Below, in pieces: positions 1 through 11,523 of a DNA stretch of 11,523 bases. A program made the translations under genes and the position numbers. Position 1 is the stretch's first letter. Each line of letters begins with the position of its first letter. Under the pieces are notes generated by a model. It was not told where the DNA came from and did no database searches. It saw nothing but the letters and a program-made list of their open reading frames with translations. The DNA comes from a virus. Location: UHGV virus genome UHGV-0861165; one strand, written 5' to 3'.

Positions 1-2748
1 ATTGAGCATGGACCAGATGCTGTCCTGACTTTACCCGAGGGTAATGCCAGCGCAGGACTCCCGTCTTCCGTTCGCTACAATGCCGACTCCGACGAATTTG
101 AGGGCTTCTATGAAAATGGTGGATGGTTGCCGCTGGGTGGCGGTGGTATCCGCTGGGAAGTCCTTCCGCATGCCTCTACGGCAACGCTCACTGAAGGGCG
201 AGGCTATCTCATTAATAATACCACAGGGGCATCTACAGTGGTTCTCCCTTCCCCTACGCGTATTGGGGATTCTGTTACTATTTGTGATGCTTATGGGAAA
301 TTTGCCACTTACCCATTGACTGTGTCTCCTTCTGGAAATAATTTGTATGGCTCCACTGAAGACATGGCTATAACAACTGATAACGTATCAGCAACGTTCA
401 CTTGGTCTGGACCTGAACAAGGTTGGGTTATCACATCCGGTGTCGGTCTTGGCCAAGGTCGTGTCTACAGTCGTGAAATCTTTACAAAAATTTTGGCGTC
501 TGAAACAAGTGCTGTCGCTCTCAATACTCCACCAACAATCGTGGACGTGTATGCTGACGGAAAACGTCTTGCGGAATCCAAATATTCACTAGATGGGAAT
601 GTAATCACTTTCAGTCCTTCTTTGCCAGCCAACACAGAACTTCAGGTGATTGAATATACTCCTATTCAATTGGGTAATAGCGGTGGTTCTGGTTCTTCTA
701 CGATTACCTGGGTCTATAATGGGGGTTCAGCGATTGGCGGTGAAACCGAAATCACTTTGGACGTCGTTGTTGATGATGTTCCGGCCATTGATATAAACGG
801 AAGTCGCCAGTATAAAAATCTGGGATTCACATTCGATCCATTAACCAGTAAAATCTATCTTGCACAAGAACTGGAACCAGAGGATGAAGTTGTTGTAATT
901 ATCAATGGAACACCAAACATCTATAATCAAATTGATCATACTTTGCGGGAAGTTGCTCGTGCTACTAACGTTAAAGACAGTGAAGTAATTCTTAGTTCTG
1001 ACACTACTCAGTCCCTTAATGGTAAGAAGATTATTTACTCTGTTAGTGAGCAGAAGGCATATAGTTTACCTACTCTACCGTCCAATGTATTTATTGAATC
1101 TGTTGAAAGTGGGAAATTAACATATAGTCCTGGCTCAATTAAGGTAGATCTACTCCCATTACCTAATGACTCTGCTGTAACTGAGCAAGCAATTCTCAAC
1201 CAGTTGTCTGCAATTGAAGGTGAATCCCTTATTGGAACAGTTACCTATGTAACCCTGCGAGAGTACACAGGCTCAGCTACACGTGTTAAGTGTATCGGTA
1301 GAAGTGTAGAGGGGGATGGTGGTGAGGGGGACTTCTATTTAGTACCTGGTGATTCTACTTCAGTAGATGATGATGGGGTAATTATTGTTGATGGTTCCGG
1401 CCGTCGTTGGAAACGTTCCTATTCTGGCCCAATTTCTGCCTCTTGGTTCGGTGTAAGAGATGGTACTGACGTCACCACTACACTACAAAATGCAGTTAGT
1501 CGGGGTGGTGGACAAATCTTTGTACAGGACGGTCAGTACACACTTACTGCTCCCATCGTTGCAAATTTTACTGGTGCATCTTTCCCAATTATGGGAAGAA
1601 AAAGTAAGCGTTTTGATTTCATTGGTTCATCCATGGCGAACACCACTTTTAATACTAATGGTAATGAAGCGTTTAGTTTTACCGGTACTGATGGTTCTGT
1701 AGCTGGTCAGGGTGTACATAGTGGTGCACGTATTAGTGACTTCAGCGTCTATGGCACAAATAATACAGGCATTGGTGTACGTTTGGTTGGTGCTGCATAC
1801 CTCAAAGTACATGACCTCCAAATTAAACGTACTAATATCGCTATGCGTATTTCTGGTGTACTCTCAAGTGATATAAAACGAATCAATGCTCAATATAACA
1901 ACCATGGTATGTACATCACCAGTGCTTCTAACAGTACAGTCAATGCTATGCGTATTAGTGGGATGTTTGGTGCTAATAGTAAATGGGGAATTGAAGGTGA
2001 AGTAGGTACTAACGTATACATTGAAGATTCTAATTTTGAGGGTAATGGTACAGATGGGGATGAACTGTCTGGTGCTATTTACTTACGAGTTGTAGAACCT
2101 TTGAGCACCATTAACATTAGTGGGTACTTTGAGGCTAACGTTGGGCGAGCAGATATACTGATAGATAACCGAACCAGCTCTCCTTTGGTTGTAAACCTCC
2201 GTGGTTGCGTATTTAATCGTGGTGGTATGCGTGGTGGGTCTAATCTTGGTATTGGTGCAAAGTATAATGTTGAGACACGCTCTACTGGCGGTGGTCCAAT
2301 CATCCTTAATCTTAATGGTTGTGTATTCTTTACACAGACGGGTTTTGGATATGTACCTAGTGCAGATTCTCCATATATACAACCAGCACCATACTTAACT
2401 GTTAATGGGGAAGATACTTGTTACTTTAGTGAATCTACTAGTCGTGGTGAGACTGGGAACCGTGGTATGACATTAGGTATTTCTATGAAAGCTGATGGAA
2501 CCATGGCCAATAAACCACCTTTCTTAACCTCAACTCGTGTTTCTGCTGGTGTATACACCATCACACACAATACTAGATTCGGGACGGATATTGATCATTT
2601 CCAGGCAGTGGCTACGTCTAAGGCCAGTGGTTTTACTGTATCTTATGTGCAGAAGGTTAACTTACAGGCATTACGCATCGTTACATTAAATGCAGCAGGT
2701 TCGCCTGCTGATACTGATTTTGATGTTATAGTCACTTCTCGTCGTTAA
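1..2748 (+). CDS. Tail spike protein, long form, 5'-partial: N-terminal tandem small beta-domains (gp10-like by recollection), internal docking motif, then right-handed parallel beta-helix depolymerase-type domain
   Basis: Frame 1 has no stop from position 1 to TAA at 2746-2748. The ORF-track start at 127 is a TTG inside this open frame, so the gene begins upstream of the window. The translation shows periodic beta-helix-like repeats rich in G/N/S/T (e.g. GIGVRLVGAAYLKVHDLQIKRTNIAMRISG, NVYIEDSNFEGNG). It is paralogous to ORF3 in the docking motif (REVARATNVKDSEVIL...QKAYSLPTLP) and the pre-helix neck motif. Confidence 0.85.
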   Translation: MEHGPDAVLTLPEGNASAGLPSSVRYNADSDEFEGFYENGGWLPLGGGGIRWEVLPHASTATLTEGRGYLINNTTGASTVVLPSPTRIGDSVTICDAYGKFATYPLTVSPSGNNLYGSTEDMAITTDNVSATFTWSGPEQGWVITSGVGLGQGRVYSREIFTKILASETSAVALNTPPTIVDVYADGKRLAESKYSLDGNVITFSPSLPANTELQVIEYTPIQLGNSGGSGSSTITWVYNGGSAIGGETEITLDVVVDDVPAIDINGSRQYKNLGFTFDPLTSKIYLAQELEPEDEVVVIINGTPNIYNQIDHTLREVARATNVKDSEVILSSDTTQSLNGKKIIYSVSEQKAYSLPTLPSNVFIESVESGKLTYSPGSIKVDLLPLPNDSAVTEQAILNQLSAIEGESLIGTVTYVTLREYTGSATRVKCIGRSVEGDGGEGDFYLVPGDSTSVDDDGVIIVDGSGRRWKRSYSGPISASWFGVRDGTDVTTTLQNAVSRGGGQIFVQDGQYTLTAPIVANFTGASFPIMGRKSKRFDFIGSSMANTTFNTNGNEAFSFTGTDGSVAGQGVHSGARISDFSVYGTNNTGIGVRLVGAAYLKVHDLQIKRTNIAMRISGVLSSDIKRINAQYNNHGMYITSASNSTVNAMRISGMFGANSKWGIEGEVGTNVYIEDSNFEGNGTDGDELSGAIYLRVVEPLSTINISGYFEANVGRADILIDNRTSSPLVVNLRGCVFNRGGMRGGSNLGIGAKYNVETRSTGGGPIILNLNGCVFFTQTGFGYVPSADSPYIQPAPYLTVNGEDTCYFSESTSRGETGNRGMTLGISMKADGTMANKPPFLTSTRVSAGVYTITHNTRFGTDIDHFQAVATSKASGFTVSYVQKVNLQALRIVTLNAAGSPADTDFDVIVTSRR

Positions 2749-2775: not shown

Positions 2776-2880
2776 TAGAAAAACAATGAGGTACATATGA
2801 ACGGATTATTCTTACAAGGTGGTAAAGGTTCAACCGGGATCTTAACCAATAAACAAGCAATAGCTCGGCATTTCGGTGTC
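2776..2880 (+). repeat. Junction cassette copy A: CTAGAAAAACAA-GAGGT-ATATGAACG plus conserved 5' coding segment of the short tail spike
   Basis: By eye, near-identical at nucleotide level to 8103-8209 (TAGAAAAACAAtGAGGTacATATGAACGgatTaTTCTtACAAGGTGGTAAAGG... versus TAGAAAAACAAaGAGGTttATATGAACGaaaTgTTCTcACAAGGTGGTAAAGG...). Includes the RBS (GAGG) and the ATG at 2797. Confidence 0.7.
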
Positions 2881-5301
2881 AAAGAAGACGAAGTCGTTTA
2901 TTTCACTGTCGGTATTGATCTCAGTGGATTTAAAGTAATTTATGATGAGTCTACCCAACGGGCTTATTCTCTTCCTTCAGGTATTGTTTCAGGAACGACT
3001 GCGATAAGCCTTAATTCTGCTGGGGTATTAGTCCATTCTGCTGGTAATGTGGATTTAGGTGCACTAGCTGTTACCCGGGAAGAGTATGTAACTTTACCTG
3101 GTTCATTCGAGACGGGTGTAACCGTTAATGCCAAGAATGAGTTAGTTGTCTTTGCGAATGGCAAGTATCGTTGGGATGGGGCATTGCCTAAAGTGGTTGA
3201 TGCAGCCTCATCCCCCGAAACCAGTGGTGGTATTGCTTCAGGTGCTTGGGTAGGTGTGGTTTCTGCTCTCCTAACAACAGCCAGCGGTACTGGGCTTGTA
3301 GGTCACAAAGGTGCTAACTTTAGTGACACCACTGCCTACCTTTACCTATCCTGGCGTAATGGTGATATTACTGCATTCGGGGGTGTGTACGATGACGCCT
3401 CAGCTGGTGATCTAAATAAAGCAGCCTTTGCTACTATGCAGGATACTTTTGGGGGTGTACGTATAAACCTCATGGGTAAAGCAGTTTACCTACCAAACTC
3501 TATGGAGTTAGAGGTAGGGAGTCTGGAAATCTGGGGTGGTGGTAATATTTTCGGTGGTTCTGGATACATGTTCCGTGCTGGTGACAACGGATTCGTTAAC
3601 ATTAAGGAATTTACCCTACAAAGTATTGATGCAAGTGGTAACGACTTCACTCGCCTTGTTGGTGCACCCTCTAATCGTGTTAACCTCATCCAGTATGTTG
3701 AAGCAGCATATTTCAAAACGATTGGAAGAGTCATCGTATTCGCTGGCAATGGTCGCGCCGGTGGAGACTTTAATCCAGTAGAGACAAGTTACGGCTGTAA
3801 GCAGATTAACTTCCATCACTTTTCATGCGAAGAGCCAGGAGACTATCTCGTTTCTGCCCAGAACTATCCGTTTGATACCTTCAGTGTCACTAAGTTTTAT
3901 GTACATAATATGAAGGGTACGCTCATCAATGCTGGAATTGATAACGATCATGTCTATGAGCGTCAGCTAAACCACGCAATGAAAACCCTCATCGTTTCCG
4001 ACTACACCGTCATGAACGAAGATGATTTCTGGGCTGATGGCGTCTTTACCTATACTACGGTAGCTATCGCTGAAGTTGAGCACCTAGTTCACACCAACGG
4101 TCGCCAACATGGTGTTAAAGTCAAAGAGGCTGGTAATGTAGTCTACGACATCTACAATAATGCATTTAGCGTCCAAGAAGAAAATATCTTTATCAGTGAC
4201 TGTTTCAACTGGAACGACGGGATGCTCATGCCTCACAAGATTAAAGGGGCGTGGAGCTATTCGAGTAAGAATAAGCACTGGGTGTACCGTAAGAGTTATG
4301 TGGTGGCAATGAAAGCTATTCACAGTGGTATTTCAGAAGGAAACGCCAAAGGTTCTTTCTTCTATCCCGAAACGGATGACCTGCACACTAGTGCTGCTTC
4401 TTCTGTCACTGATTGGACGCAACGACAAATCACGATCACTGACTGTTTCATTGAACTGATTAAAGTTAATCAGGCTAACCTTTCACGTCCATTGTTCAAT
4501 GTGCGTTTGGATGGCAACACCTTTGTTACACACGATTCTGGTACTACCCATTTGGTTCAGTTCTCTGCCTATCCCCATAACCTCTATCAGCAGATGACGG
4601 TAACAAATAACCGTATCATAGCTCCGGCTCTTACGTTATCTGCATTGGTAGGCTTCTCCGCAGGTTCTCAGGCTGGTGGAGGAGTATTCCAGGGGGTTGT
4701 CGATATTTCGAACAATACCGTTCGGGCAGCAGCGGCGAATTTGCTGGCAGATTGGTCTGGTGGTCAGAATATCGGAACTGGGTCAGTCATCCGTATCGAC
4801 AATAACGATATGGTTACCACAGGCAACTGCCAGATCTGTAACTCTAATCCGTCCTATGTTGACTCTGTATTTGCTAGAAACAACTATTTGCAGGGCACTG
4901 CGACTGTAGGGATGGGTAAGCTGAACGCATCTGCCTACGCATATGAGACTGTGAATGGGTTTAAGGGGAACAGTCCGATTGTTCTGTTCCAGCAGGGAAT
5001 CCCAACAGCGCAGCAGATTAATAGTCGCTCGTATCGCCTGGAGATTTCTGGAACTAATGGTGAGAAAGTAACCCAAGGTTTCACTATCACTGCTGGCGTC
5101 AGCACGACTTCAATACGCTTCGTGAGTTCCGATGGGAACACGTACACGAAGGTAACTGGAACCGATAATGGCACCTTCGAAATGCAATCCACTTCATCGG
5201 ATGGGTTAAATTTAGAGGTCGTGGTTGCATCTGATGGTGTAACAGTCAGAACAGCGTCGTCTGTGATGCAAAGGTTTGAAGCTCGACTGTATGCTCTGTA
5301 A
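2797..5301 (+). CDS. Tail spike protein, short form (834 aa): N-terminal anchor module shared with ORF4, divergent central and C-terminal receptor-binding/enzymatic region
   Basis: ATG at 2797 preceded by GAGG with a 5-nt spacer; uninterrupted 2505-nt ORF. The first ~155 aa (MNGLFLQGGKGSTGILTNKQAIARHFGVKEDEVVYF...KVIYDESTQRAYSLP...) are clearly homologous to the ORF4 N-terminus. The C-terminus is rich in G/T/S/V beta-strand-like sequence typical of tail spike C-terminal domains. Enzymatic fold not assignable by eye. Confidence 0.85.
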   Translation: MNGLFLQGGKGSTGILTNKQAIARHFGVKEDEVVYFTVGIDLSGFKVIYDESTQRAYSLPSGIVSGTTAISLNSAGVLVHSAGNVDLGALAVTREEYVTLPGSFETGVTVNAKNELVVFANGKYRWDGALPKVVDAASSPETSGGIASGAWVGVVSALLTTASGTGLVGHKGANFSDTTAYLYLSWRNGDITAFGGVYDDASAGDLNKAAFATMQDTFGGVRINLMGKAVYLPNSMELEVGSLEIWGGGNIFGGSGYMFRAGDNGFVNIKEFTLQSIDASGNDFTRLVGAPSNRVNLIQYVEAAYFKTIGRVIVFAGNGRAGGDFNPVETSYGCKQINFHHFSCEEPGDYLVSAQNYPFDTFSVTKFYVHNMKGTLINAGIDNDHVYERQLNHAMKTLIVSDYTVMNEDDFWADGVFTYTTVAIAEVEHLVHTNGRQHGVKVKEAGNVVYDIYNNAFSVQEENIFISDCFNWNDGMLMPHKIKGAWSYSSKNKHWVYRKSYVVAMKAIHSGISEGNAKGSFFYPETDDLHTSAASSVTDWTQRQITITDCFIELIKVNQANLSRPLFNVRLDGNTFVTHDSGTTHLVQFSAYPHNLYQQMTVTNNRIIAPALTLSALVGFSAGSQAGGGVFQGVVDISNNTVRAAAANLLADWSGGQNIGTGSVIRIDNNDMVTTGNCQICNSNPSYVDSVFARNNYLQGTATVGMGKLNASAYAYETVNGFKGNSPIVLFQQGIPTAQQINSRSYRLEISGTNGEKVTQGFTITAGVSTTSIRFVSSDGNTYTKVTGTDNGTFEMQSTSSDGLNLEVVVASDGVTVRTASSVMQRFEARLYAL

Positions 5302-5302
5302 G

Positions 5303-5330
5303 AACAACCCCGCTTCGGCGGGTTCTTGTT
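5303..5330 (+). terminator. Terminator-like hairpin with CCCGC-TTCG-GCGGG core (UUCG-type tetraloop) and T-rich 3' flank
   Basis: CCCGC(5309-5313) TTCG GCGGG(5318-5322), flanked by partially complementary AACAA/TTGTT arms, followed by TTCTTGTT. Lies immediately after the ORF2 stop (5299-5301). Confidence 0.45.
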
Positions 5331-5360
5331 ATACCTTTGTTCATAAATTTATTAGTTCAG

Positions 5361-5368
5361 ACTAAATA
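5361..5368 (+). promoter_or_regulatory. ACTAAATA motif, candidate phage late-promoter-like element (T4 late consensus TATAAATA, 6/8 match)
   Basis: The same octamer recurs at 10350-10357 upstream of ORF5, followed in both cases by a similar leader (ATGGRG-ATC-(2-3 nt)-AAATG). The spacing to the downstream start is 34-36 nt if ORF3 starts at 5405. Confidence 0.3.
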
Positions 5369-5404
5369 CCCCATATTGGCAAATCCTCTATGGGGTATCT
5401 TCAA

Positions 5405-8068
5405 ATGACCAGAAACGTCGAGAGCATCTTTGGAGCGGTCGTAACAGCTCCGCACCAGATTCCATACACTTACACAGCAACGGGCGGAGAGAAGTTTATC
5501 TCCCTCCCTTTCTACCCTGTCACTGGTATAGTCACAATCAACGGTGGTATGCAAGTTCCGTTAGACAACTTTGAAATCGATGGAAATACGTTGAATCTCG
5601 GGTGTGCATTATCCAAAGGTGACGTTGTGTTCTGTCTGTTTGATAAGATTCTGTCTCCAGAAGATTATAAAACTGGGATTCGAATCTATAAGTTTCAGGC
5701 TATAGGAGGTGAAACCGAGTTCACTCCTGATTACACATCCTATGGAGTCCAATCTCTTTATATCGGTGGTGAGTACAAAACACCCGAAATTGAATATTCC
5801 TATGACAGCACGACAGGGAAAGTGACTTTACAAACTGCGCTGACTGCAGGCGTTTGGGTAGTCGCTGAAATGTCTGTTAAACAACCGAATATCAGTCCGT
5901 TGTTTGACCGAAGTATTCAAGAAATCGCCCGTTCAGCTAATGTAAAAGATTCTGAGGTAATTCTTAATACGGATACATCTCAAGTACTCAATAACAAGAA
6001 AGTTATCTTCGATGCAGCTGCTCAGAAAATTTATGGCCTGCCTTCATTACCGACCAATGTCTATATTAGTTCTGTGTCTAATGGTCAGTTAACCTACAGT
6101 CCAGGTAACATTACCGTAGATTTGATGGAAGTTCCTAATTCTGGTGCTAGTCTCAGAGAAGACCTGAGTAAGCCTGATGGTAGCAAGCTCATTGGTTCAT
6201 GCCCCAATATTGCAGTACTGCGAACAATTGAGCCTACCTATGCTGAACAACGCATTTACGTAGAAGCACATACTGAAGGTATGATTGCAACCAATGCAGG
6301 TGATTTAGGTGGCGGGTATTTTGTATATAAACCATCTGTTACATCAGCAGATGACAATGGTATGACTATTGTTACTGCATCCGGCAAGCGTTGGGTACGT
6401 GATTTACGTGGTAGCACCGAAGTTACCCCATCTATGTTTGGTGCGTGGATGGATGCTCCTTATATTGATGGGAGCACTATTCAGGGTACACCTTATCCTA
6501 AAGCACCAAGTATGGGGGCTGCTGACCTGTCTGGTGTGCACAATGATGGGGATGCTTTGCTGGCAACCTACACATATGCTGTAGCTAATGGGTTGAATAT
6601 CAAAATTACTCAACCGATGTACATTGGTGATACACAGATTGATATTAGCAATCAGCGTTGGACTGGTAGATCTCTATCCATTACGGGTCTTGGTCAGAGA
6701 CAAAGTATTATTTATACATCAGGTAAGGGTGGATTCATCTCTACCAGATGGGGACACAATATTACCGTTGGTCGCCTCTCTTTCCGTAATGCTGATTCTG
6801 ATTACGTAGGTAGTCCTCTTGTTATCAGTTCATTCGACTTAAGTAATGGCATCGGTGGTGGTGGTAAAACATTCAATATTCACGATGTGGACTTTTACCA
6901 CTATAAGTTCGCTTTGCCTATGGCTTGCTTTGTCAGTGTTATGACCAATTTGTATGCATATGACTGTACCTATGGTTTTGGTATCAATGGAAGCACTAGT
7001 ACGGATATGTCATCTATTTGGGCACACCATTGTGACATTGGCTTTTTATGGGGAGCTGCCATTAATCGTACTACATACGAGCCAGCCAATAATGAAACAC
7101 CTGTTATGTATGTTGCTACCAGCAACATTGCAGCAGATGGTTGCATTTTACCTCATAAATTTTATGGAGATATTCGTAGCCTTTCCTTCTCTGGCTTTGG
7201 TATTGAAGGGATAAATGGTCCAGTGGCATTAGACTTCTCACAGTTAGCCTCCCCTGCTGCACAAACAACAATCGTATTCAGAGATGTTTCTTGTTGGATT
7301 CAGTCTAAAATGAATACTGGTGTAACTCATTTTATTGAGTTGCCTGCTAATGAGTACCAGGCTGGTAGGATTATTTTTGACAGTGGTTACGTTAACTCTG
7401 ACTATGCTATCAAATTGATGGAGAATACCACTTCTCCAAGTAACCAGTATATTGGGCGTAGTGTTACATTAAATAGTAATTTTGAATTTTTAAAAGTTAG
7501 CGATGGTTCCTACACAATATCTACATATAACCGTGGTAACCTTTACCGGGGCAGGGTATATGGAGAAGATATTGTACAAGGTCGTAACTCGTACACGGGT
7601 ACTACTTTGTCAGCAATCCATTCTAATAGTAATTCCTTCTTCAGAAGTGTTGACCATAAGGAAGCTACTGTACTGGTTCCATGGAACAGGGCTTTAGATA
7701 TATTCCTTTGTGCTGTAGGGGAAGAGACTAAAATTCCGGATGGTTGCTTCGTTGCTGGGCGTGCAGATATCATTCCAGTTAACAAAAATGGTTTGGCTGG
7801 TACTGAATCAGGGGGCAGTATTCTGTTTGGGCTATCCGGTAGCACACAGGAAAATGTAGCCTCTGGTGCAGTCTGGTCTAATATGATTGCTGGTGATAAA
7901 TCTCTTTCCGGGGTAACAGTAACTAAACTGGTACGTGATGGTAAAACATTTGTTAGAATCGCATTGCCTACGGCAAGCCTAACAAATGCAATCGTTCACC
8001 TTTCTGTAACCTACTGTGGTTTTGCACATTACTACGATAAGCGTTGGGAAATAAAACCCTTAAGCTAA
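5405..8068 (+). CDS. Tail spike protein, long form (887 aa from ATG 5405; 892 aa if the in-frame ATG at 5390 is used): N-terminal tandem small beta-domains, docking motif, neck motif, beta-helix depolymerase-type domain
   Basis: Uninterrupted frame to TAA 8066-8068. Start ambiguity: the ATG at 5390 has no SD and sits in the 3' arm of an inverted repeat, whereas the ATG at 5405 has a leader that parallels the ORF5 leader. The protein is paralogous to ORF1 in the docking motif (QEIARSANVKDSEVIL...QKIYGLPSLP) and the neck motif (GGGYFVYKPSVTSADDNGMTIVTASGKRWVRD). Confidence 0.85.
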   Translation: MTRNVESIFGAVVTAPHQIPYTYTATGGEKFISLPFYPVTGIVTINGGMQVPLDNFEIDGNTLNLGCALSKGDVVFCLFDKILSPEDYKTGIRIYKFQAIGGETEFTPDYTSYGVQSLYIGGEYKTPEIEYSYDSTTGKVTLQTALTAGVWVVAEMSVKQPNISPLFDRSIQEIARSANVKDSEVILNTDTSQVLNNKKVIFDAAAQKIYGLPSLPTNVYISSVSNGQLTYSPGNITVDLMEVPNSGASLREDLSKPDGSKLIGSCPNIAVLRTIEPTYAEQRIYVEAHTEGMIATNAGDLGGGYFVYKPSVTSADDNGMTIVTASGKRWVRDLRGSTEVTPSMFGAWMDAPYIDGSTIQGTPYPKAPSMGAADLSGVHNDGDALLATYTYAVANGLNIKITQPMYIGDTQIDISNQRWTGRSLSITGLGQRQSIIYTSGKGGFISTRWGHNITVGRLSFRNADSDYVGSPLVISSFDLSNGIGGGGKTFNIHDVDFYHYKFALPMACFVSVMTNLYAYDCTYGFGINGSTSTDMSSIWAHHCDIGFLWGAAINRTTYEPANNETPVMYVATSNIAADGCILPHKFYGDIRSLSFSGFGIEGINGPVALDFSQLASPAAQTTIVFRDVSCWIQSKMNTGVTHFIELPANEYQAGRIIFDSGYVNSDYAIKLMENTTSPSNQYIGRSVTLNSNFEFLKVSDGSYTISTYNRGNLYRGRVYGEDIVQGRNSYTGTTLSAIHSNSNSFFRSVDHKEATVLVPWNRALDIFLCAVGEETKIPDGCFVAGRADIIPVNKNGLAGTESGGSILFGLSGSTQENVASGAVWSNMIAGDKSLSGVTVTKLVRDGKTFVRIALPTASLTNAIVHLSVTYCGFAHYYDKRWEIKPLS

Positions 8069-8078
8069 TTAACTACCC

Positions 8079-8102
8079 CCACCCCCTTTATGGGGGTGGT
8101 TT
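8079..8102 (+). terminator. Terminator-like hairpin CCACCCCC-TTTAT-GGGGGTGG followed by TTT
   Basis: Perfect 8-bp inverted repeat (8079-8086 / 8092-8099) with a 5-nt loop and a TTT 3' tail, 10 nt after the ORF3 stop. Confidence 0.6.
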
Positions 8103-8209
8103 ACTAGAAAAACAAAGAGGTTTATATGAACGAAATGTTCTCACAAGGTGGTAAAGGCTCCACTGGTATTCTTACCAATAAGCAAGCCATTGCCCGTAAG
8201 TTTGGTGTT
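8103..8209 (+). repeat. Junction cassette copy B (see 2776-2880)
   Basis: Nucleotide-level similarity to copy A spans the leader, RBS, ATG (8126) and the first ~80 nt of coding sequence. Confidence 0.7.
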
Positions 8210-10297
8210 AAGCAATCTGAGGTTGTTTATGCCAAATCAGGACAGTCCTTGTCTGGTTATAAAGTAATCTACGATAAGGTCACTCAGCGCTCCTATGCAC
8301 TGCCTTCTAACCTGCCTGCTGGCGCTACCATCACCAGCCTGACAGACGGCATTCTCGTACACAATACGGGCACCGTAGACCTGGGTGCTCTGGCTGTACT
8401 GCGCGGGGAGTTCGTTACTCTGGTCGAAAACTTTACGTCTGGATTTACGATTCGTGTCAAAAACGAAGTTGTAAGTGATGGGGTAAATTTGTATCGCTGG
8501 GGTGGTAGTTTACCAAAGACCGTTAATTCTGGTGAAACTTTAGAAAGCACTGGGGGTATGAATACGAATGCGTGGATTGGCGTTGTATCGCTTAATAACT
8601 CATTTTTGAGTGTAAATGCTCTAAGGGCGTCAGAAAACTTAAATAAAAATATACCATTGTTTCTTTCAAGTTATTATGAAGGTATTGATGGCGGCGGCGG
8701 GTCTTTCTACGTAGATACCAACGACACTACGTCATCAGATAACAATGGTACAGTATTTGTTAACGCCTCTGGCCAGCGCATAAAACGTATTTCAGATGGT
8801 GTATGTCGTTGGTCAGACTTCGGAATTCTTCCAGGCATGCCGGTAGCGCCTACAAAATCGCAGTGTGAAGCCGTTTGGTCGTGGGGGTTTGCAAATGGGT
8901 GTACTCGTTATGAAACCTTCCAGAAAGGGGAGATGACGTTCACCTTCCCCCTGTTGTTCCAAGTTCCGGCTAACTGGACAGGTGGTGCTGTTAGCTTCAT
9001 TGCAGAAGGGTTGCATAAATTTGCTTATGATTTCAAAAATGGCGCTACAGATGATGTGATTGAGATCCTCCTTAAACTGGAAGATCTGTCAGGTAATACA
9101 CCCATCCATACTGTTTATAATTTTGATAACGTTGGGATGGGACGGTTCCCCGGGAAAAACATCCGATATACCGCACTGCGACACACGAGCGCAAAAAACT
9201 CAATGATCAAGGTTACTGGGAAGAACAACTACGGATATGCCTTGTTCATAGGCGGTAGTGATAACAGCATCGTGTACAATTCAACGTTTTATAACTGCGA
9301 TGGCCAGTTGCTTGTAAATTCTCCAGCAGGCGGTTACGACAGCTTTGGTGATGCAATTTATGTTGGCGCTAAAAATGTGTCTATCCAGAGTCCTGTAATT
9401 GAAACAACACAGGGTGGTAGAGCCGGTATCGTATTTGAAGGGACATGGGTTGAACGTGTTGGTGGTGAGGTAACAAACTGCTTTATTAAGGGATATGACC
9501 GTGGTATTCACATAGAGACTGTAGGTTTCAGGATGGATGCAATTAATATTACTGGAGGCAGGATACAAGATTGCAATACCAGCGTATTGGCATTCAATGG
9601 TGTAACTGATGATATGGGTAGTGATATGTCTGTTATCATCAAGGGGTTAACGTCAAGGCTTGATAGCACAATTTCAGGCCACGCCAATCCGTCTGGTTTT
9701 AGCCTGGGACACCTTATGGTATCTGGAGTTAACACACAAGTAACAACGGAAGGGTGCTCATGGCAGACTCACCAGAACAACATCACCGTTGTGGGTAATG
9801 GGAAATGGGTGAGCAATGGTGACCGCATGTTTGTTAACTCTGGTGGCATCAACCTGCCGTACACTCGTGGGTGCGAGATAAACAATCTGTACGCACCACA
9901 GAACAGAAACGCGTTAAAATCCGCAGGTAATTTAGTCTTTACAAACTCTTATTGGGGAGGGGACATTAACATAACCGGGGGCAATAAAACAATTATTGAT
10001 AACGTCGAGATGTCAAGACAAGGAGGATATGCAAACTGTGGTCGTATCAGTCTGGTTGGCTCCAATAGTGCGATATTGCGTAATATTATATTCCAGTATC
10101 CAGACTCATGGGCAATAGATAATACTCAAACTTGGCAGGTCCCCGTGTGTCCTATCATAGAAAACATCCACGTAAATAGCGTAGAAACAGGAACTGCAAC
10201 ATTACAAAGAAACGCAGAAAGTGGGGCTAATAATCGGTACAGAAGGTCTATTCCTTCATATATATCAAACGGAAGTACATGGACGATAATTAGTTAA
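8126..10297 (+). CDS. Tail spike protein, short form (723 aa): shared N-terminal anchor module, neck motif, right-handed beta-helix (pectate-lyase-like) depolymerase-type domain
   Basis: ATG at 8126 preceded by GAGG (8117-8120); uninterrupted 2172-nt ORF. The N-terminal ~150 aa are homologous to ORF2. Typical beta-helix repeats are visible (GGSDNSIVYNSTFYNCDGQLLVNS, AIYVGAKNVSIQSPVIETTQGGRAGIVFEG, TNCFIKGYDRGIHIET). Confidence 0.88.
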   Translation: MNEMFSQGGKGSTGILTNKQAIARKFGVKQSEVVYAKSGQSLSGYKVIYDKVTQRSYALPSNLPAGATITSLTDGILVHNTGTVDLGALAVLRGEFVTLVENFTSGFTIRVKNEVVSDGVNLYRWGGSLPKTVNSGETLESTGGMNTNAWIGVVSLNNSFLSVNALRASENLNKNIPLFLSSYYEGIDGGGGSFYVDTNDTTSSDNNGTVFVNASGQRIKRISDGVCRWSDFGILPGMPVAPTKSQCEAVWSWGFANGCTRYETFQKGEMTFTFPLLFQVPANWTGGAVSFIAEGLHKFAYDFKNGATDDVIEILLKLEDLSGNTPIHTVYNFDNVGMGRFPGKNIRYTALRHTSAKNSMIKVTGKNNYGYALFIGGSDNSIVYNSTFYNCDGQLLVNSPAGGYDSFGDAIYVGAKNVSIQSPVIETTQGGRAGIVFEGTWVERVGGEVTNCFIKGYDRGIHIETVGFRMDAINITGGRIQDCNTSVLAFNGVTDDMGSDMSVIIKGLTSRLDSTISGHANPSGFSLGHLMVSGVNTQVTTEGCSWQTHQNNITVVGNGKWVSNGDRMFVNSGGINLPYTRGCEINNLYAPQNRNALKSAGNLVFTNSYWGGDINITGGNKTIIDNVEMSRQGGYANCGRISLVGSNSAILRNIIFQYPDSWAIDNTQTWQVPVCPIIENIHVNSVETGTATLQRNAESGANNRYRRSIPSYISNGSTWTIIS

Positions 10298-10302
10298 CAA
10301 AG

Positions 10303-10330
10303 CCCCTCTTCGGAGGGGTTTCTTCTTTCT
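10303..10330 (+). terminator. Rho-independent-type terminator: CCCCTC-TTCG-GAGGGG hairpin followed by TTTCTTCTTTCT
   Basis: Perfect 6-bp GC stem with a TTCG tetraloop and a pyrimidine/T-rich tail, 5 nt after the ORF4 stop. The stem sequence is nearly the same as the hairpin at 2755-2775. Confidence 0.65.
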
Positions 10331-10339
10331 ATTCCTCGG

Positions 10340-10367
10340 TTGGTTGTATACTAAATATCTCTATAAT
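10340..10367 (+). promoter_or_regulatory. Candidate promoter upstream of ORF5: TTGGTT (weak -35) - 16 nt - TATAAT (consensus -10); overlaps the ACTAAATA motif at 10350-10357
   Basis: A perfect TATAAT hexamer at 10362-10367 lies ~24 nt upstream of ATG 10392, with RBS GGAG at 10381-10384. The -35 is poor (3/6). The alternative reading is a phage late-type promoter centred on ACTAAATA. Confidence 0.3.
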
Positions 10368-10391
10368 GGCACCTATCGATGGAGCATCAAA

Positions 10392-11523
10392 ATGCAAGAA
10401 ATGAACCTCAACCGCCGCCCATATTGGGATGACTGGAATCCAGAGAAGCGTTTTTCGCGCATCCTATTCCGTCCGGCACCTATCAAAGTTCAGACGCGTG
10501 AACTGAACCAGATGCAGACCATCTTCCAGGATCAACTGGAGAAACTTGGCAACCATCTGTTCAAAGACGGTTCAATGGTTATCCCCGGCGGCCTGACGAT
10601 CACCAACACTGCTGTGTCCATGAAGTTCACTCTGGCTGGTGGTAGTGAGTTCACTGATCTGGAAGGTATCTCCGAACTCTATGTTCTGGGCAAGGACAAC
10701 AATGCGAAAGCACGCGTCCTGTCCTTGGAACGTTACCCAGCTGAGCCGGATACAATGTATGCCATCTTAGAGATGACTGAGAGTGGTAGTTCAGACGGTT
10801 TCGAAGCTGGCGACAATCTATACTTCAACACCTATGACGTGAACGATAACTTCATCCGTGTCGGCTATGGCGTGGCCGATACTGTTGGCGGTTCGATTGT
10901 CGCTCGCATGACAAAGGGTGTTTATTTCGTTCGTGGTATGTTCCTGGATGTTGAACCAACCACTTTGATCGTAGACAACGCATCGAACTCTACATCTCAC
11001 CGCATTGGCTTCAAAGTTACAGAAACAATCGTGACCGAAGCAGAAGATGAAAGTCTGTTCTCCAATGCTCAGGGTACTCCGAACTCTAAAGCCCCTGGTG
11101 CGCATCGCCTGCGCGTCGACCTCGTGTTGTCTCGCTACGGTTATGATGAAGAAGTGGCCGACTTCGTTGAACTGGCGAAGGTGAAAGACGGTCGCATTCA
11201 GTCCATGGTCACCCAGTCAACGTACAACATCCTCGAAGACGCCATGGCTCAGCGTACCTATGAGACCAATGGTGACTACAACGTCTCTACTCACCAGATC
11301 GACCTGCGTGAACATCTGAAAGAGAACAACAACGGCGGCGTTTACACTCCGGCTGAAGGTGGTGATGAAAGCAAATTCGTGGCGGTTATGAAGCCAGGCA
11401 TTTCCTACGTTCGTGGTCGTCGTATCGAAAACCTCGGCGAAGAGCTGGTCATAATTGACAAAGCCCGTGACACTGATATCCTGAACAACAACCCTGTGGC
11501 TGTTTCGACTGGCAACTATCTGG
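10392..11523 (+). CDS. Conserved phage structural protein of unknown function (possibly baseplate- or tail-associated), 3'-partial
   Basis: ATG at 10392 with a good RBS (GGAG, 7-nt spacer); the frame is open to the window end, so it is absent from the ORF track. It looks visibly GC-richer, with more host-like codon choice, than the spike genes, and it lacks beta-helix repeats and the spike N-terminal modules. The function is inferred only from its position next to the spike cluster. Confidence 0.75.
   Translation, partial: MQEMNLNRRPYWDDWNPEKRFSRILFRPAPIKVQTRELNQMQTIFQDQLEKLGNHLFKDGSMVIPGGLTITNTAVSMKFTLAGGSEFTDLEGISELYVLGKDNNAKARVLSLERYPAEPDTMYAILEMTESGSSDGFEAGDNLYFNTYDVNDNFIRVGYGVADTVGGSIVARMTKGVYFVRGMFLDVEPTTLIVDNASNSTSHRIGFKVTETIVTEAEDESLFSNAQGTPNSKAPGAHRLRVDLVLSRYGYDEEVADFVELAKVKDGRIQSMVTQSTYNILEDAMAQRTYETNGDYNVSTHQIDLREHLKENNNGGVYTPAEGGDESKFVAVMKPGISYVRGRRIENLGEELVIIDKARDTDILNNNPVAVSTGNYL

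What the first reader, a model, noticed from the sequence alone, without database searches (positions are those of the whole stretch)
8560..8700. Abrupt compositional shift inside ORF4 at the module boundary
The 5' module of ORF4 (about 8126-8560) is visibly GC-rich with host-like codons (ctgcctgctggcgctaccatcaccagcctgacagacggc...). The sequence just after the ORF2/ORF4 divergence point becomes markedly AT-rich (aataactcatttttgagtgtaaatgct...aacttaaataaaaatataccattgtttctttcaagttattatgaa). This is consistent with a horizontally acquired receptor-binding domain grafted onto a resident anchor module.
Basis: seen in the sequence. Interest (0 to 1): 0.5.

Follow-up and report, generated by a model that had tools for sequence, protein, structure and literature searches.

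The report
Tailspike module joint with AT-rich patch
The spot is the real seam in a phage tailspike gene where a widely swapped sugar-cutting receptor-binding domain joins a tail-anchoring domain, but the "compositional shift" is only an 80-110-base AT-rich patch that this domain carries in every phage that has it, so the finding is an ordinary example of known tailspike mosaicism.

Summary
The window is an Ackermannviridae four-tailspike cluster. ORF4 (8126-10297) is its TSP1-type tailspike.

**Boundary.** The module boundary at about 8590 is real. ORF2/ORF4 homology, matches to solved structures and Pfam PF18668 all end at residue 153-155. One relative's DNA homology starts exactly at 8591.

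**Composition.** The shift is not a step.
- The anchor is 46.9% GC and the receptor-binding domain 43.4%. A fixed split at 8590 gives about 1.8 on a chi-square scale, and segmentation finds no change point inside ORF4.
- The visible contrast comes from two short features: a GC island (8291-8425, 58.5%) and an AT patch (8591-8671, 28.4%; 35% to 8701). GC then returns to 48%.
- The AT patch is AT-rich in all six other lineages examined that carry this domain (27-36% GC). It is mostly amino-acid driven, so it belongs to the domain and is not a mark of foreign DNA.

**Mosaicism.** Homology shows it strongly. Residues 1-30, 31-155 and 156-723 each have different nearest relatives. The domain is fused to about ten anchor types: P22 head-binding, epsilon15-like, T7-like, short SP6/K1-5-like peptides and others.

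**Anchor.** It is not simply resident. Identity to the closest genomes stops at 8214.

**Verdict.** Observation partly confirmed, interpretation partly supported, biology already well described.

The parts
8126..8590 (+). Anchor module of ORF4 (residues 1-155): TD1 (about 1-96) plus TD2 (about 97-155) of the Ackermannviridae TSP1/TSP3 type
   Evidence: phmmer hits to CBA120 TSP1 4OJ5 (E 2.6e-51), G7C gp63.1 4QNL, Shigella phage B2 Gp48 9D84 and CBA120 TSP3 cover only residues 1-154 (names). Pfam PF18668 matches residues 97-153 at 48 bits, cutoff 25. 58% identity to ORF2 residues 1-156. TD1/TD2 limits are from PMC8432352.
8126..8214 (+). First about 30 codons, still collinear with the nearest genomes; near-identity ends at 8214
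   Evidence: blastn: fGh-Ecl02 5361-8214 at 96.1% and YX22 5325-8214 at 95.9%, then no match until 10298/10315. Residues 1-30 are 100% identical to CECAV_050, fGh-Ecl02, YX22 and P0002.
8291..8425 (+). GC island inside the anchor (58.5% GC, GC3 0.60 against 0.38 expected from the amino acids)
   Evidence: The same 60-nt bins are 52-63% GC in the Det7 and CECAV_050 TSP1 alleles but 42-47% in fGh-Ecl02 and YX22 TSP1 (SJ2 TSP1: 57% and 43%). It overlaps the end-of-TD1 'GTTAVSL' site proposed as a recombination site in PMC8432352.
8585..8591 (+). Module joint (anchor to receptor-binding domain)
   Evidence: ORF2/ORF4 homology ends at residue 155. DNA homology to contig L013 (P0001) begins exactly at 8591. 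The alignment shows 18 nt (the 'GDAxLRxQ' codons) missing here relative to SJ2, Tyrion and P0001. Model pLDDT dips to 65 at residues 151-160.
8591..8701 (+). AT-rich patch (core 8591-8671 is 28.4% GC; 8591-8701 is 35.1%). It encodes the first 37 residues of the receptor-binding module, LNNSFLSVNALRASENLNKNIPLFLSSYYEGIDGGGG
   Evidence: The homologous segment is 27-36% GC in all six other carrier lineages and lies in the lowest 0-4.5% of same-size windows of each one's own receptor-binding domain. GC at codon positions 1+2 is 0.31-0.39 against 0.42-0.47 elsewhere. The model gives strand 158-160, helix 163-168, strand 178-180 and strand 192-196.
8591..10297 (+). Receptor-binding / depolymerase module (residues 156-723), a right-handed parallel beta-helix. 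Homologues are annotated PF27114 Phage_tail_beta
   Evidence: 41 homologues with E <= 1e-10, joined to about ten different N-terminal architectures. AlphaFold model pLDDT 82.3, beta-helix throughout. Foldseek hits to CBA120 TSP1-4 and Klebsiella/Acinetobacter depolymerases. DNA identity is 90.7% to an E. coli P22-like prophage from 8672.
10300..10321 (+). Terminator-like hairpin directly after the ORF4 stop; near-identity to the nearest genomes resumes here
   Evidence: 9-bp stem, T-rich tail. YX22 and CECAV_050 identity of 98.4-98.5% resumes at 10298. L013 and L009 homology runs to 10320-10324.

Best explanation
Position 8585-8591 is the joint between two exchangeable modules of an Ackermannviridae TSP1-type tailspike. 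Residues 1-155 (TD1-TD2) dock the spike onto the branched tailspike complex. Residues 156-723 form a beta-helix glycan-degrading receptor-binding domain that circulates among many unrelated phages and prophages.

The visible compositional contrast has two local sources. The first is a GC-rich island (8291-8425) that belongs to the particular anchor allele, the Det7 gp209 / CECAV_050 type. The second is an 80-110-nt AT-rich patch (8591-8701) that encodes the conserved Asn/Leu/Ser/Phe/Tyr-rich N-terminal cap of the receptor-binding module, with motif LNNxFxSVxxLRxSxNLxxxIPxxLxxYY followed by GGGG.

The patch travels with the module and is AT-rich in every carrier examined. The main cause is the amino acids it encodes, and AT-biased third positions add a smaller share. 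There is no lasting change of base composition across the joint.

Shown here: the boundary, the mosaic ancestry, the conservation of the patch, and the absence of a module-scale step. Inferred: that recombination in or next to the conserved TD2 / 'YRWDGxLPK...GDAxLR' region created the joint, that the anchor binds the XD3 domain of TSP2 or TSP4, and that the domain cleaves an O-antigen.
For: **Boundary.** Searches put the end of anchor homology at residue 153-155.

**Incongruent ancestry.**
- Residues 1-30 are 100% identical to fGh-Ecl02, YX22, CECAV_050 and P0002.
- Residues 31-155 are 78% and 77% identical to CECAV_050 and Det7, but 56% to SJ2 and 44% to P0002.
- Residues 156-723 are 90% identical to P0002 and 86% to SJ2, and unrelated to CECAV_050, Det7, fGh-Ecl02 and YX22.

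**Module mobility.** The same domain is fused to these anchors:
- the P22 head-binding domain PF09008 (14 E. coli / E. fergusonii prophage proteins);
- an epsilon15-like 283-residue anchor (Tyrion and 3 others);
- the T7 tail-fibre N-terminus PF03906 (P0006);
- short 9-17-residue N-termini (CrRp3, P0032, P0034);
- several other anchors.

**Composition.** There is no module-scale step.

**Patch conservation.**
- The patch is 27-36% GC in all carriers, against 42-45% for the rest of their receptor-binding domains.
- GC at codon positions 1+2 is 0.31-0.39 in the patch against 0.42-0.47 elsewhere.
- In the window, the expected GC from the amino acids alone is 0.405 and the observed value is 0.351.

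**Fold.** The model and fold search agree on a tailspike beta-helix.

**Literature.** PMC8432352, PMC11414711 and PMC10408124 describe exchange of receptor-binding modules in Ackermannviridae tailspikes, including with distant phages and prophages.
Against: - Third-position GC is also lower in the patch in all carriers (0.11-0.37 against 0.33-0.45). Amino-acid content therefore does not explain everything, and some selection at the nucleotide level, or shared ancestry of synonymous sites, cannot be excluded.
- DNA homology start points of different relatives fall in or at the edges of the patch (8591, 8630, 8672, 8747). This could mean the patch is itself a preferred crossover zone rather than just a diverged segment.
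- The Pfam copy available here did not return PF27114 for the window protein. That family assignment rests on the precomputed annotation of homologues that are 90% identical.
- No binding or enzymatic function was tested.
Confidence: 0.85

Rival explanations
1. One reading: the drop in GC marks a recently imported receptor-binding domain from a lower-GC donor, joined to a resident, host-adapted anchor. On this view the compositional contrast is itself the signature of horizontal transfer.
For: There is a sharp 100-nt-scale drop exactly at 8590 (0.18, top 0.5% of positions). The domain really has been exchanged horizontally.
Against: - GC of the receptor-binding domain (43.4%; 44.2% without the patch) equals the window mean of 44.3%. 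GC3 is 0.41 against 0.30-0.43 in the other tailspike genes.
- A fixed split at 8590 gives about 1.8 on a chi-square scale, and no significant change point lies inside ORF4.
- The patch is equally AT-rich in carriers from unrelated phage families.
- The anchor is not resident beyond codon 30.
Confidence: 0.04
2. The AT-rich patch is a selected nucleotide-level element that travels with the cassette. Candidates are an easily melted crossover zone that favours module exchange, or a slow-translation segment that lets the anchor fold or trimerise before the beta-helix emerges.
For: - GC3 in the patch is lower than in the rest of the receptor-binding domain in all carriers.
- Homology breakpoints of four relatives fall at 8591, 8630, 8672 and 8747.
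- The invariant Arg167 is encoded by AGR in every carrier, and CTA, AGG and ATA codons cluster there.
Against: - Most of the effect sits at codon positions 1+2, so it is driven by the amino acids.
- Three rare codons in 15 is not unusual; 3.6% of windows reach that count.
- There is no promoter-like site in the patch.
- The analogous pre-GGG segments of ORF1 and ORF3 are 45.6% and 42.2% GC.
- The carriers are homologous, so shared AT-richness may simply be inherited.
Confidence: 0.08
3. It is a chance fluctuation: ordinary local GC noise in a 44% GC phage gene that happens to sit next to a domain boundary.
For: The interval as given (8560-8700) is only at the 8th percentile of same-size windows. 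After allowing for amino acids, the residual GC of the 37-codon patch is at the 5th percentile and its GC3 residual at the 12th.
Against: The 81-nt core is one of the two lowest-GC places in the 11.5 kb (0.28% of windows). The trough recurs at the homologous position in six other lineages.
Confidence: 0.03

Closest known systems
CBA120 TSP1 (ORF210; PDB 4OJ5) and the Ackermannviridae branched tailspike complex (TSP1-TSP4)
   Same: The gene order is a four-tailspike cluster upstream of vrlC/vriC. The N-terminal 155 residues are homologous (E 2.6e-51). TD2 matches PF18668. A C-terminal beta-helix follows.
   Different: The receptor-binding domain has no sequence similarity to that of CBA120 TSP1. 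The 'GDAALR' neck motif after TD2 is missing in ORF4.
Kuttervirus SJ2 ORF153 (TSP1; AHK61504.1)
   Same: Same overall architecture and the same receptor-binding family (85-86% aa over residues 156-723). The AT patch is present, 33% GC.
   Different: The anchor is a different allele (56% identity over residues 31-155). Overall DNA identity is only 76%. SJ2 retains the GDASLRSQ neck codons.
Tailspikes of the podophages Tyrion (Uetakevirus, ANN86194.1) and CrRp3 (Vectrevirus, AUV59367.1), and of E. coli P22-like prophages (P0004 type, PF09008 head-binding domain)
   Same: They share the same receptor-binding module: 83%, 66% and 90% aa identity, and up to 90.7% DNA identity from 8672 for the prophage. 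All include the AT-rich N-terminal cap.
   Different: The anchors are entirely different: a 283-residue epsilon15-like domain, a 17-residue peptide, and a 124-residue P22 head-binding domain. So are the virion types and the lifestyle (temperate for the prophages).
Published model of receptor-binding-module swapping in Ackermannviridae tailspikes (Sorensen et al. 2021, PMC8432352; 2024, PMC11414711; Pas et al. 2023, PMC10408124)
   Same: Conserved 5' ends with variable receptor-binding domains, and exchange with distant lytic phages and prophages.
   Different: Searches of those three papers for 'GC content' found no mention. The conserved AT patch of this receptor-binding family and the three-part ancestry of this particular ORF4 are observations made here.

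Membership tests
Ackermannviridae TSP1/TSP3-type anchor (TD1-TD2; Pfam PF18668 Tail_spike_N) | N-terminal ~155 residues homologous to CBA120 TSP1/TSP3 residues 1-155 | tested here: met
   phmmer against PDB: 4OJ5 E 2.6e-51 (query 1-154), 6NW9/5W6F E 1.2e-40, 9D84 E 2.6e-53, 4QNL E 1.4e-52.
Ackermannviridae TSP1/TSP3-type anchor (TD1-TD2; Pfam PF18668 Tail_spike_N) | PF18668 match above the gathering score | tested here: met
   48 bits against a cutoff of 25, residues 97-153.
Ackermannviridae TSP1/TSP3-type anchor (TD1-TD2; Pfam PF18668 Tail_spike_N) | Last gene of a four-tailspike cluster, directly upstream of vrlC/vriC | tested here: met
   Four large + strand ORFs, then a vrlC homologue from 10392. 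The arrangement is collinear with fGh-Ecl02, YX22, SJ2, CECAV_050 and Det7.
Ackermannviridae TSP1/TSP3-type anchor (TD1-TD2; Pfam PF18668 Tail_spike_N) | Physical docking onto the XD3 domain of TSP2/TSP4 | not testable with these tools
   This needs pull-down or cryo-EM work. Here it is inferred only from homology.
Beta-helix tailspike depolymerase (PF27114 Phage_tail_beta) | Sequence membership of PF27114 | tested here: inconclusive
   The Pfam copy used returned only PF18668 for ORF4. Homologues 62-90% identical over residues 156-723 carry PF27114 in the precomputed annotations.
Beta-helix tailspike depolymerase (PF27114 Phage_tail_beta) | Right-handed parallel beta-helix fold | tested here: met
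   AlphaFold2 model with mean pLDDT 82.3 and consecutive short strands over residues 260-720. Foldseek probability 1.00 to CBA120 TSP1-4 and to K2-2, Depo32 and Acinetobacter phage tailspikes. Global TM-scores are low (0.2-0.4) because it is a multi-domain monomer model.
Beta-helix tailspike depolymerase (PF27114 Phage_tail_beta) | Glycan (O-antigen or capsule) cleavage | not testable with these tools
   Only context is available: acyltransferase genes lie next to the homologous spikes in Tyrion and in the E. coli prophage.
   46.9% against 43.4% GC; fixed-split statistic about 1.8 on a chi-square scale; no change point inside ORF4 (permutation p 0.44); GC3 0.445 against 0.41.
   Identity table by segment and DNA breakpoints at 8214, about 8534, 8591, 8672 and 10298.

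The most novel reading that the evidence does not exclude
The conserved AT-rich 80-nt patch at the 5' edge of this receptor-binding cassette could be a selected nucleotide-level 'joint element'. It might act as a melting-prone crossover zone or as a translational pause. It would travel with the cassette and help it plug into many different anchors: Ackermannviridae TD2, P22 head-binding, epsilon15-like, T7-like and SP6-like.
Probability: 0.08. Interest if true: 0.5.

Novelty: new member of a known kind. Interest (0 to 1): 0.18.

Why it matters
The practical value is small and lies mainly in method. Base composition is a poor detector of tailspike module exchange here. The exchanged domain has the same GC as its surroundings, and the eye-catching contrast comes from two short features that each belong to their own module. 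Homology mapping detects the mosaicism that composition misses.

The result also gives a precise, naturally used fusion point (8585-8591, residue 155/156) and alternative ones (about 8672, the GGGG motif). A receptor-binding domain that works on about ten different anchors is joined at these points. That could guide the design of chimeric tailspikes for engineering Ackermannviridae host range, of the kind described in PMC9965104 and PMC11414711.

Nothing here changes the current understanding of phage receptor-binding protein evolution.

Tried and rejected
- **Internal promoter or terminator in the AT patch.** The consensus scan found no promoter-like site between 8126 and 9300, and the overall count was below the shuffle expectation.
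- **Rare-codon pause.** CTA, AGG and ATA fall within 15 codons, but 3.6% of all 15-codon windows have three or more rare codons. I did not pursue this further.
- **Recent ORF2/ORF4 gene conversion at the joint.** Both proteins end the anchor with 'AW(V/I)GVVS', but the DNA differs (ggtgcttgggtaggtgtggtttct against aatgcgtggattggcgttgtatcg). Rejected.
- **AT-richness as a general property of the 'LR...YY...GGG.F' N-terminal cap.** The analogous segments of ORF1 and ORF3 are 45.6% and 42.2% GC. Rejected.
- **AT trough as a general feature of Ackermannviridae TSP1/TSP3 joints.** It is present for this receptor-binding type and for the TSP3 of SJ2, CECAV_050 and Det7 (25-27% GC). It is absent in the TSP1 of CECAV_050, Det7, fGh-Ecl02 and YX22, the TSP3 of fGh-Ecl02 and YX22, and ORF2 of this window (45-55%). 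Not general.
- **Reverse-strand ORF 8293..8550 (85 aa, GTG start) inside the GC island.** I treated it as a by-product of GC-richness and did not investigate it.
- **Search for the source phage.** No GenBank phage record covers 80% or more of the window. Only a 2.8-kb Logan contig matches ORF4 at 97.9%.
- **'Host-like codons'.** This cannot be evaluated without knowing the host.
Full report
**What the window is.** It holds four large + strand ORFs followed by a vrlC homologue starting at 10392:
- 1..2748, open from base 1 and therefore cut by the window edge;
- 2797..5301;
- 5390..8068;
- 8126..10297.

Megablast against GenBank phages finds 281 records, almost all Ackermannviridae (Kuttervirus, Agtrevirus). 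The similarity is patchy and no record covers 80% or more of the window. The annotated relatives fGh-Ecl02, YX22, SJ2, CECAV_050 and Det7 all show the same arrangement: four tailspike genes followed by vrlC. ORF4, which contains the finding, sits in the TSP1 position.

**The module boundary is real and correctly placed.**
- ORF2 and ORF4 are 58% identical over residues 1-155/156 and unrelated afterwards. This puts the divergence point at nt 8590.
- Solved structures match only residues 1-154 (names). They are CBA120 TSP1 4OJ5, CBA120 TSP3 6NW9/5W6F, G7C gp63.1 4QNL and Shigella phage B2 Gp48 9D84.
- Pfam PF18668 (Tail_spike_N) covers residues 97-153.
- In the nomenclature of PMC8432352 these regions are TD1 (about 1-96) and TD2 (97-155).
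- An AlphaFold2 model (mean pLDDT 82.3) shows a confidence dip at residues 151-160. A small cap follows (strand 158-160, helix 163-168, strand 178-180, strand 192-196), and then a long beta-helix.
- Foldseek returns CBA120 TSP1-4 and many capsule or O-antigen depolymerases.

**Composition: a patch, not a step.** Window GC is 44.3%.

| Segment of ORF4 | GC |
|---|---|
| 8126-8290 | 42% |
| 8291-8425 | 58.5% (GC3 0.60) |
| 8426-8590 | 42% |
| 8591-8701 | 35.1% (core 8591-8671: 28.4%) |
| 8702-9001 | 48.0% |
| 9002-10297 | 43.1% |

Averaged over modules, the anchor is 46.9% and the receptor-binding domain 43.4%.

- With 100-nt arms the drop at 8590 is 0.18, in the top 0.5% of positions.
- With 465-nt arms it is 0.032, under 1 sd.
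- A fixed split at 8590 gives about 1.8 on a chi-square scale, roughly p 0.18 by my conversion.
- The best split inside ORF4 has permutation p = 0.44.
- Recursive segmentation of the whole window finds boundaries only at about 204 and about 10405, the start of vrlC.
- The 81-nt core of the patch is genuinely extreme. It is one of two places in the 11.5 kb at or below 28.4% GC.

The 'GC-rich module' is a 135-nt island, and the 'AT-rich domain' is an 80-110-nt patch.

**Where the two local features come from.**

*GC island.* It belongs to the anchor allele. The same 60-nt bins are 52-63% GC in Det7 gp209 and CECAV_050 TSP1. These are the alleles to which ORF4 residues 31-155 are closest (77-78% aa, 84-87% nt). 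In the TSP1 genes of fGh-Ecl02 and YX22 those bins are 42-47%, and in SJ2 TSP1 they are 57% and 43%.

*AT patch.* It belongs to the receptor-binding module.
- In a nucleotide alignment of seven carriers, the homologous 81-86 nt are 27-36% GC in every one. The rest of each receptor-binding domain is 42-45%.
- The patch lies in the lowest 0-4.5% of same-size windows of each carrier's own domain.
- GC at codon positions 1+2 is 0.31-0.39 in the patch and 0.42-0.47 elsewhere. GC3 is also lower, but variably so (0.11-0.37 against 0.33-0.45).
- In the window, amino-acid content alone predicts 40.5% GC for 8591-8701, against 35.1% observed.

The patch encodes the conserved motif LNNxFxSVxxLRxSxNLxxxIPxxLxxYY, which precedes an invariant GGGG. 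The analogous pre-GGG segments of ORF1 and ORF3 are not AT-rich. The feature is therefore specific to this receptor-binding family.

**Mosaicism is shown by homology.**

At the protein level, identity to ORF4 differs by segment:

| Residues | High identity | Low or no identity |
|---|---|---|
| 1-30 | 100% to CECAV_050, fGh-Ecl02, YX22, P0002 | 57% to Det7 |
| 31-155 | 78% CECAV_050, 77% Det7 | 56% SJ2, 44% P0002 |
| 156-723 | 90% P0002, 86% SJ2 | none to CECAV_050, Det7, fGh-Ecl02, YX22 |

At the DNA level:
- The nearest genomes match 5325/5361-8214 at 96%, then nothing until 10298/10315, where identity resumes at 98.4-98.7%.
- Det7 and CECAV_050 match 8189/8100-8523/8534.
- Contig L013 (P0001) matches from exactly 8591 at 84%.
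- Tyrion matches from 8630.
- An E. coli P22-like prophage matches from 8672 at 90.7%.
- L009 (P0002) matches from 8747.
- A Logan contig, L014, is 97.9% identical across the whole gene.

The receptor-binding domain is itself patchy. 8942-9241 is 98-99% identical to two carriers whose flanking bins are 84-95% identical.

**How mobile the module is.** Tblastn against phages finds the domain in three places:
- Kuttervirus SJ2;
- the Uetakevirus podophage Tyrion, with a 283-residue epsilon15-like anchor;
- the Vectrevirus CrRp3, with only 17 residues upstream.

The large protein search adds 41 homologues. Their N-termini include:
- the P22 head-binding domain PF09008 (14 proteins, Escherichia prophages; context);
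- a T7 tail-fibre N-terminus PF03906;
- a Cys-rich coiled-coil N-terminus;
- several other unclassified N-termini;
- near-absent N-termini (9-13 residues).

In all there are about ten architectures. Many of them retain a TD2-like 'YRWDGxLPKxV...GGxGxGAWxxVGDAxLRxQ' piece just before the module.

**Verdict on the interpretation.** 'A horizontally acquired receptor-binding domain' is correct. 'Shown by composition' is not. 'A resident anchor' holds only for the first 30 codons. This kind of exchange is well documented for Ackermannviridae tailspikes (PMC8432352, PMC11414711, PMC10408124). Searches of those three papers for 'GC content' found no mention.

**What remains open.**
- Whether the AT patch carries any selection at the nucleotide level is unresolved. 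The lower GC3 in all carriers and the breakpoints at its edges are suggestive.
- Promoter and rare-codon checks were negative, and the signal at codon positions 1+2 dominates. I give that reading about 8%.
- The host, the glycan receptor and the docking partner were not testable here.

Noticed in passing
window 1-2748: ORF1 (the TSP4-type spike with a gp10-like N-terminus) is open in frame 1 from base 1, so the gene is cut by the window's 5' end. The ORF tool's TTG start at 127 is an artefact of that. From the collinear match to YX22, about 30 codons are missing.
   Followed up: partly
L014 447-2617 (Logan ERR7015370_26180), matching window 8098-10500: This is the only near-identical copy of ORF4 found anywhere (97.9% nt). 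It is called there as two genes of 359 and 364 residues, which means a frameshift or an assembly error in that contig.
   Followed up: no
window 8580-8595: At the joint, ORF4 lacks 18 nt (6 codons) that encode the 'GDAxLRxQ' motif present in SJ2, Tyrion and P0001 between TD2 and the cap. ORF2 ends its anchor with a similar 'AWVGVVS' but with different DNA. The link between anchor and beta-helix may therefore be shorter than usual.
   Followed up: partly
window 8942-9241: This stretch is 98-99% identical to both the P0002 contig (L009) and the E. coli prophage (L011), while the neighbouring stretches are 84-95% identical. It looks like a recent small exchange tract inside the receptor-binding domain.
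   Followed up: no
window ~10405 and ~204: These are the only statistically significant GC change points in the window. GC goes from 43.6% to 50.7% just inside vrlC, whose ORF starts at 10392, and from 57.8% to 43.3% near 204 in the conserved 5' part of TSP4.
   Followed up: no
window 7446-7546: This is the other extreme AT-rich patch of the window (81-nt GC down to 27.2%), in the C-terminal part of ORF3 (TSP2-type).
   Followed up: no
L001 3249-4704 (Tyrion gp23) and L011 5096-6145 (E. coli prophage): An acyltransferase gene (PF01757 in the prophage) lies directly after the homologous tailspike in both a lytic podophage and a P22-like prophage. This suggests that the spike's receptor is an O-antigen that these phages also modify.
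   Followed up: no
window 10300-10321: A terminator-like hairpin lies right after the ORF4 stop. Homology to L013 and L009 runs through it (to 10320-10324), so in some carriers the exchanged cassette includes the terminator.
   Followed up: partly
window 978-2748 and 3258-5301: The receptor-binding parts of ORF1 and ORF2 have no match in any of the five Ackermannviridae loci fetched for comparison, whereas ORF3 is 96% identical to fGh-Ecl02 and YX22 over its whole length. Each spike in the cluster has its own exchange history.
   Followed up: no
window 8293-8550, - strand: An 85-residue GTG-start ORF lies on the opposite strand inside the GC island. It is most likely a by-product of local GC-richness.
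   Followed up: no
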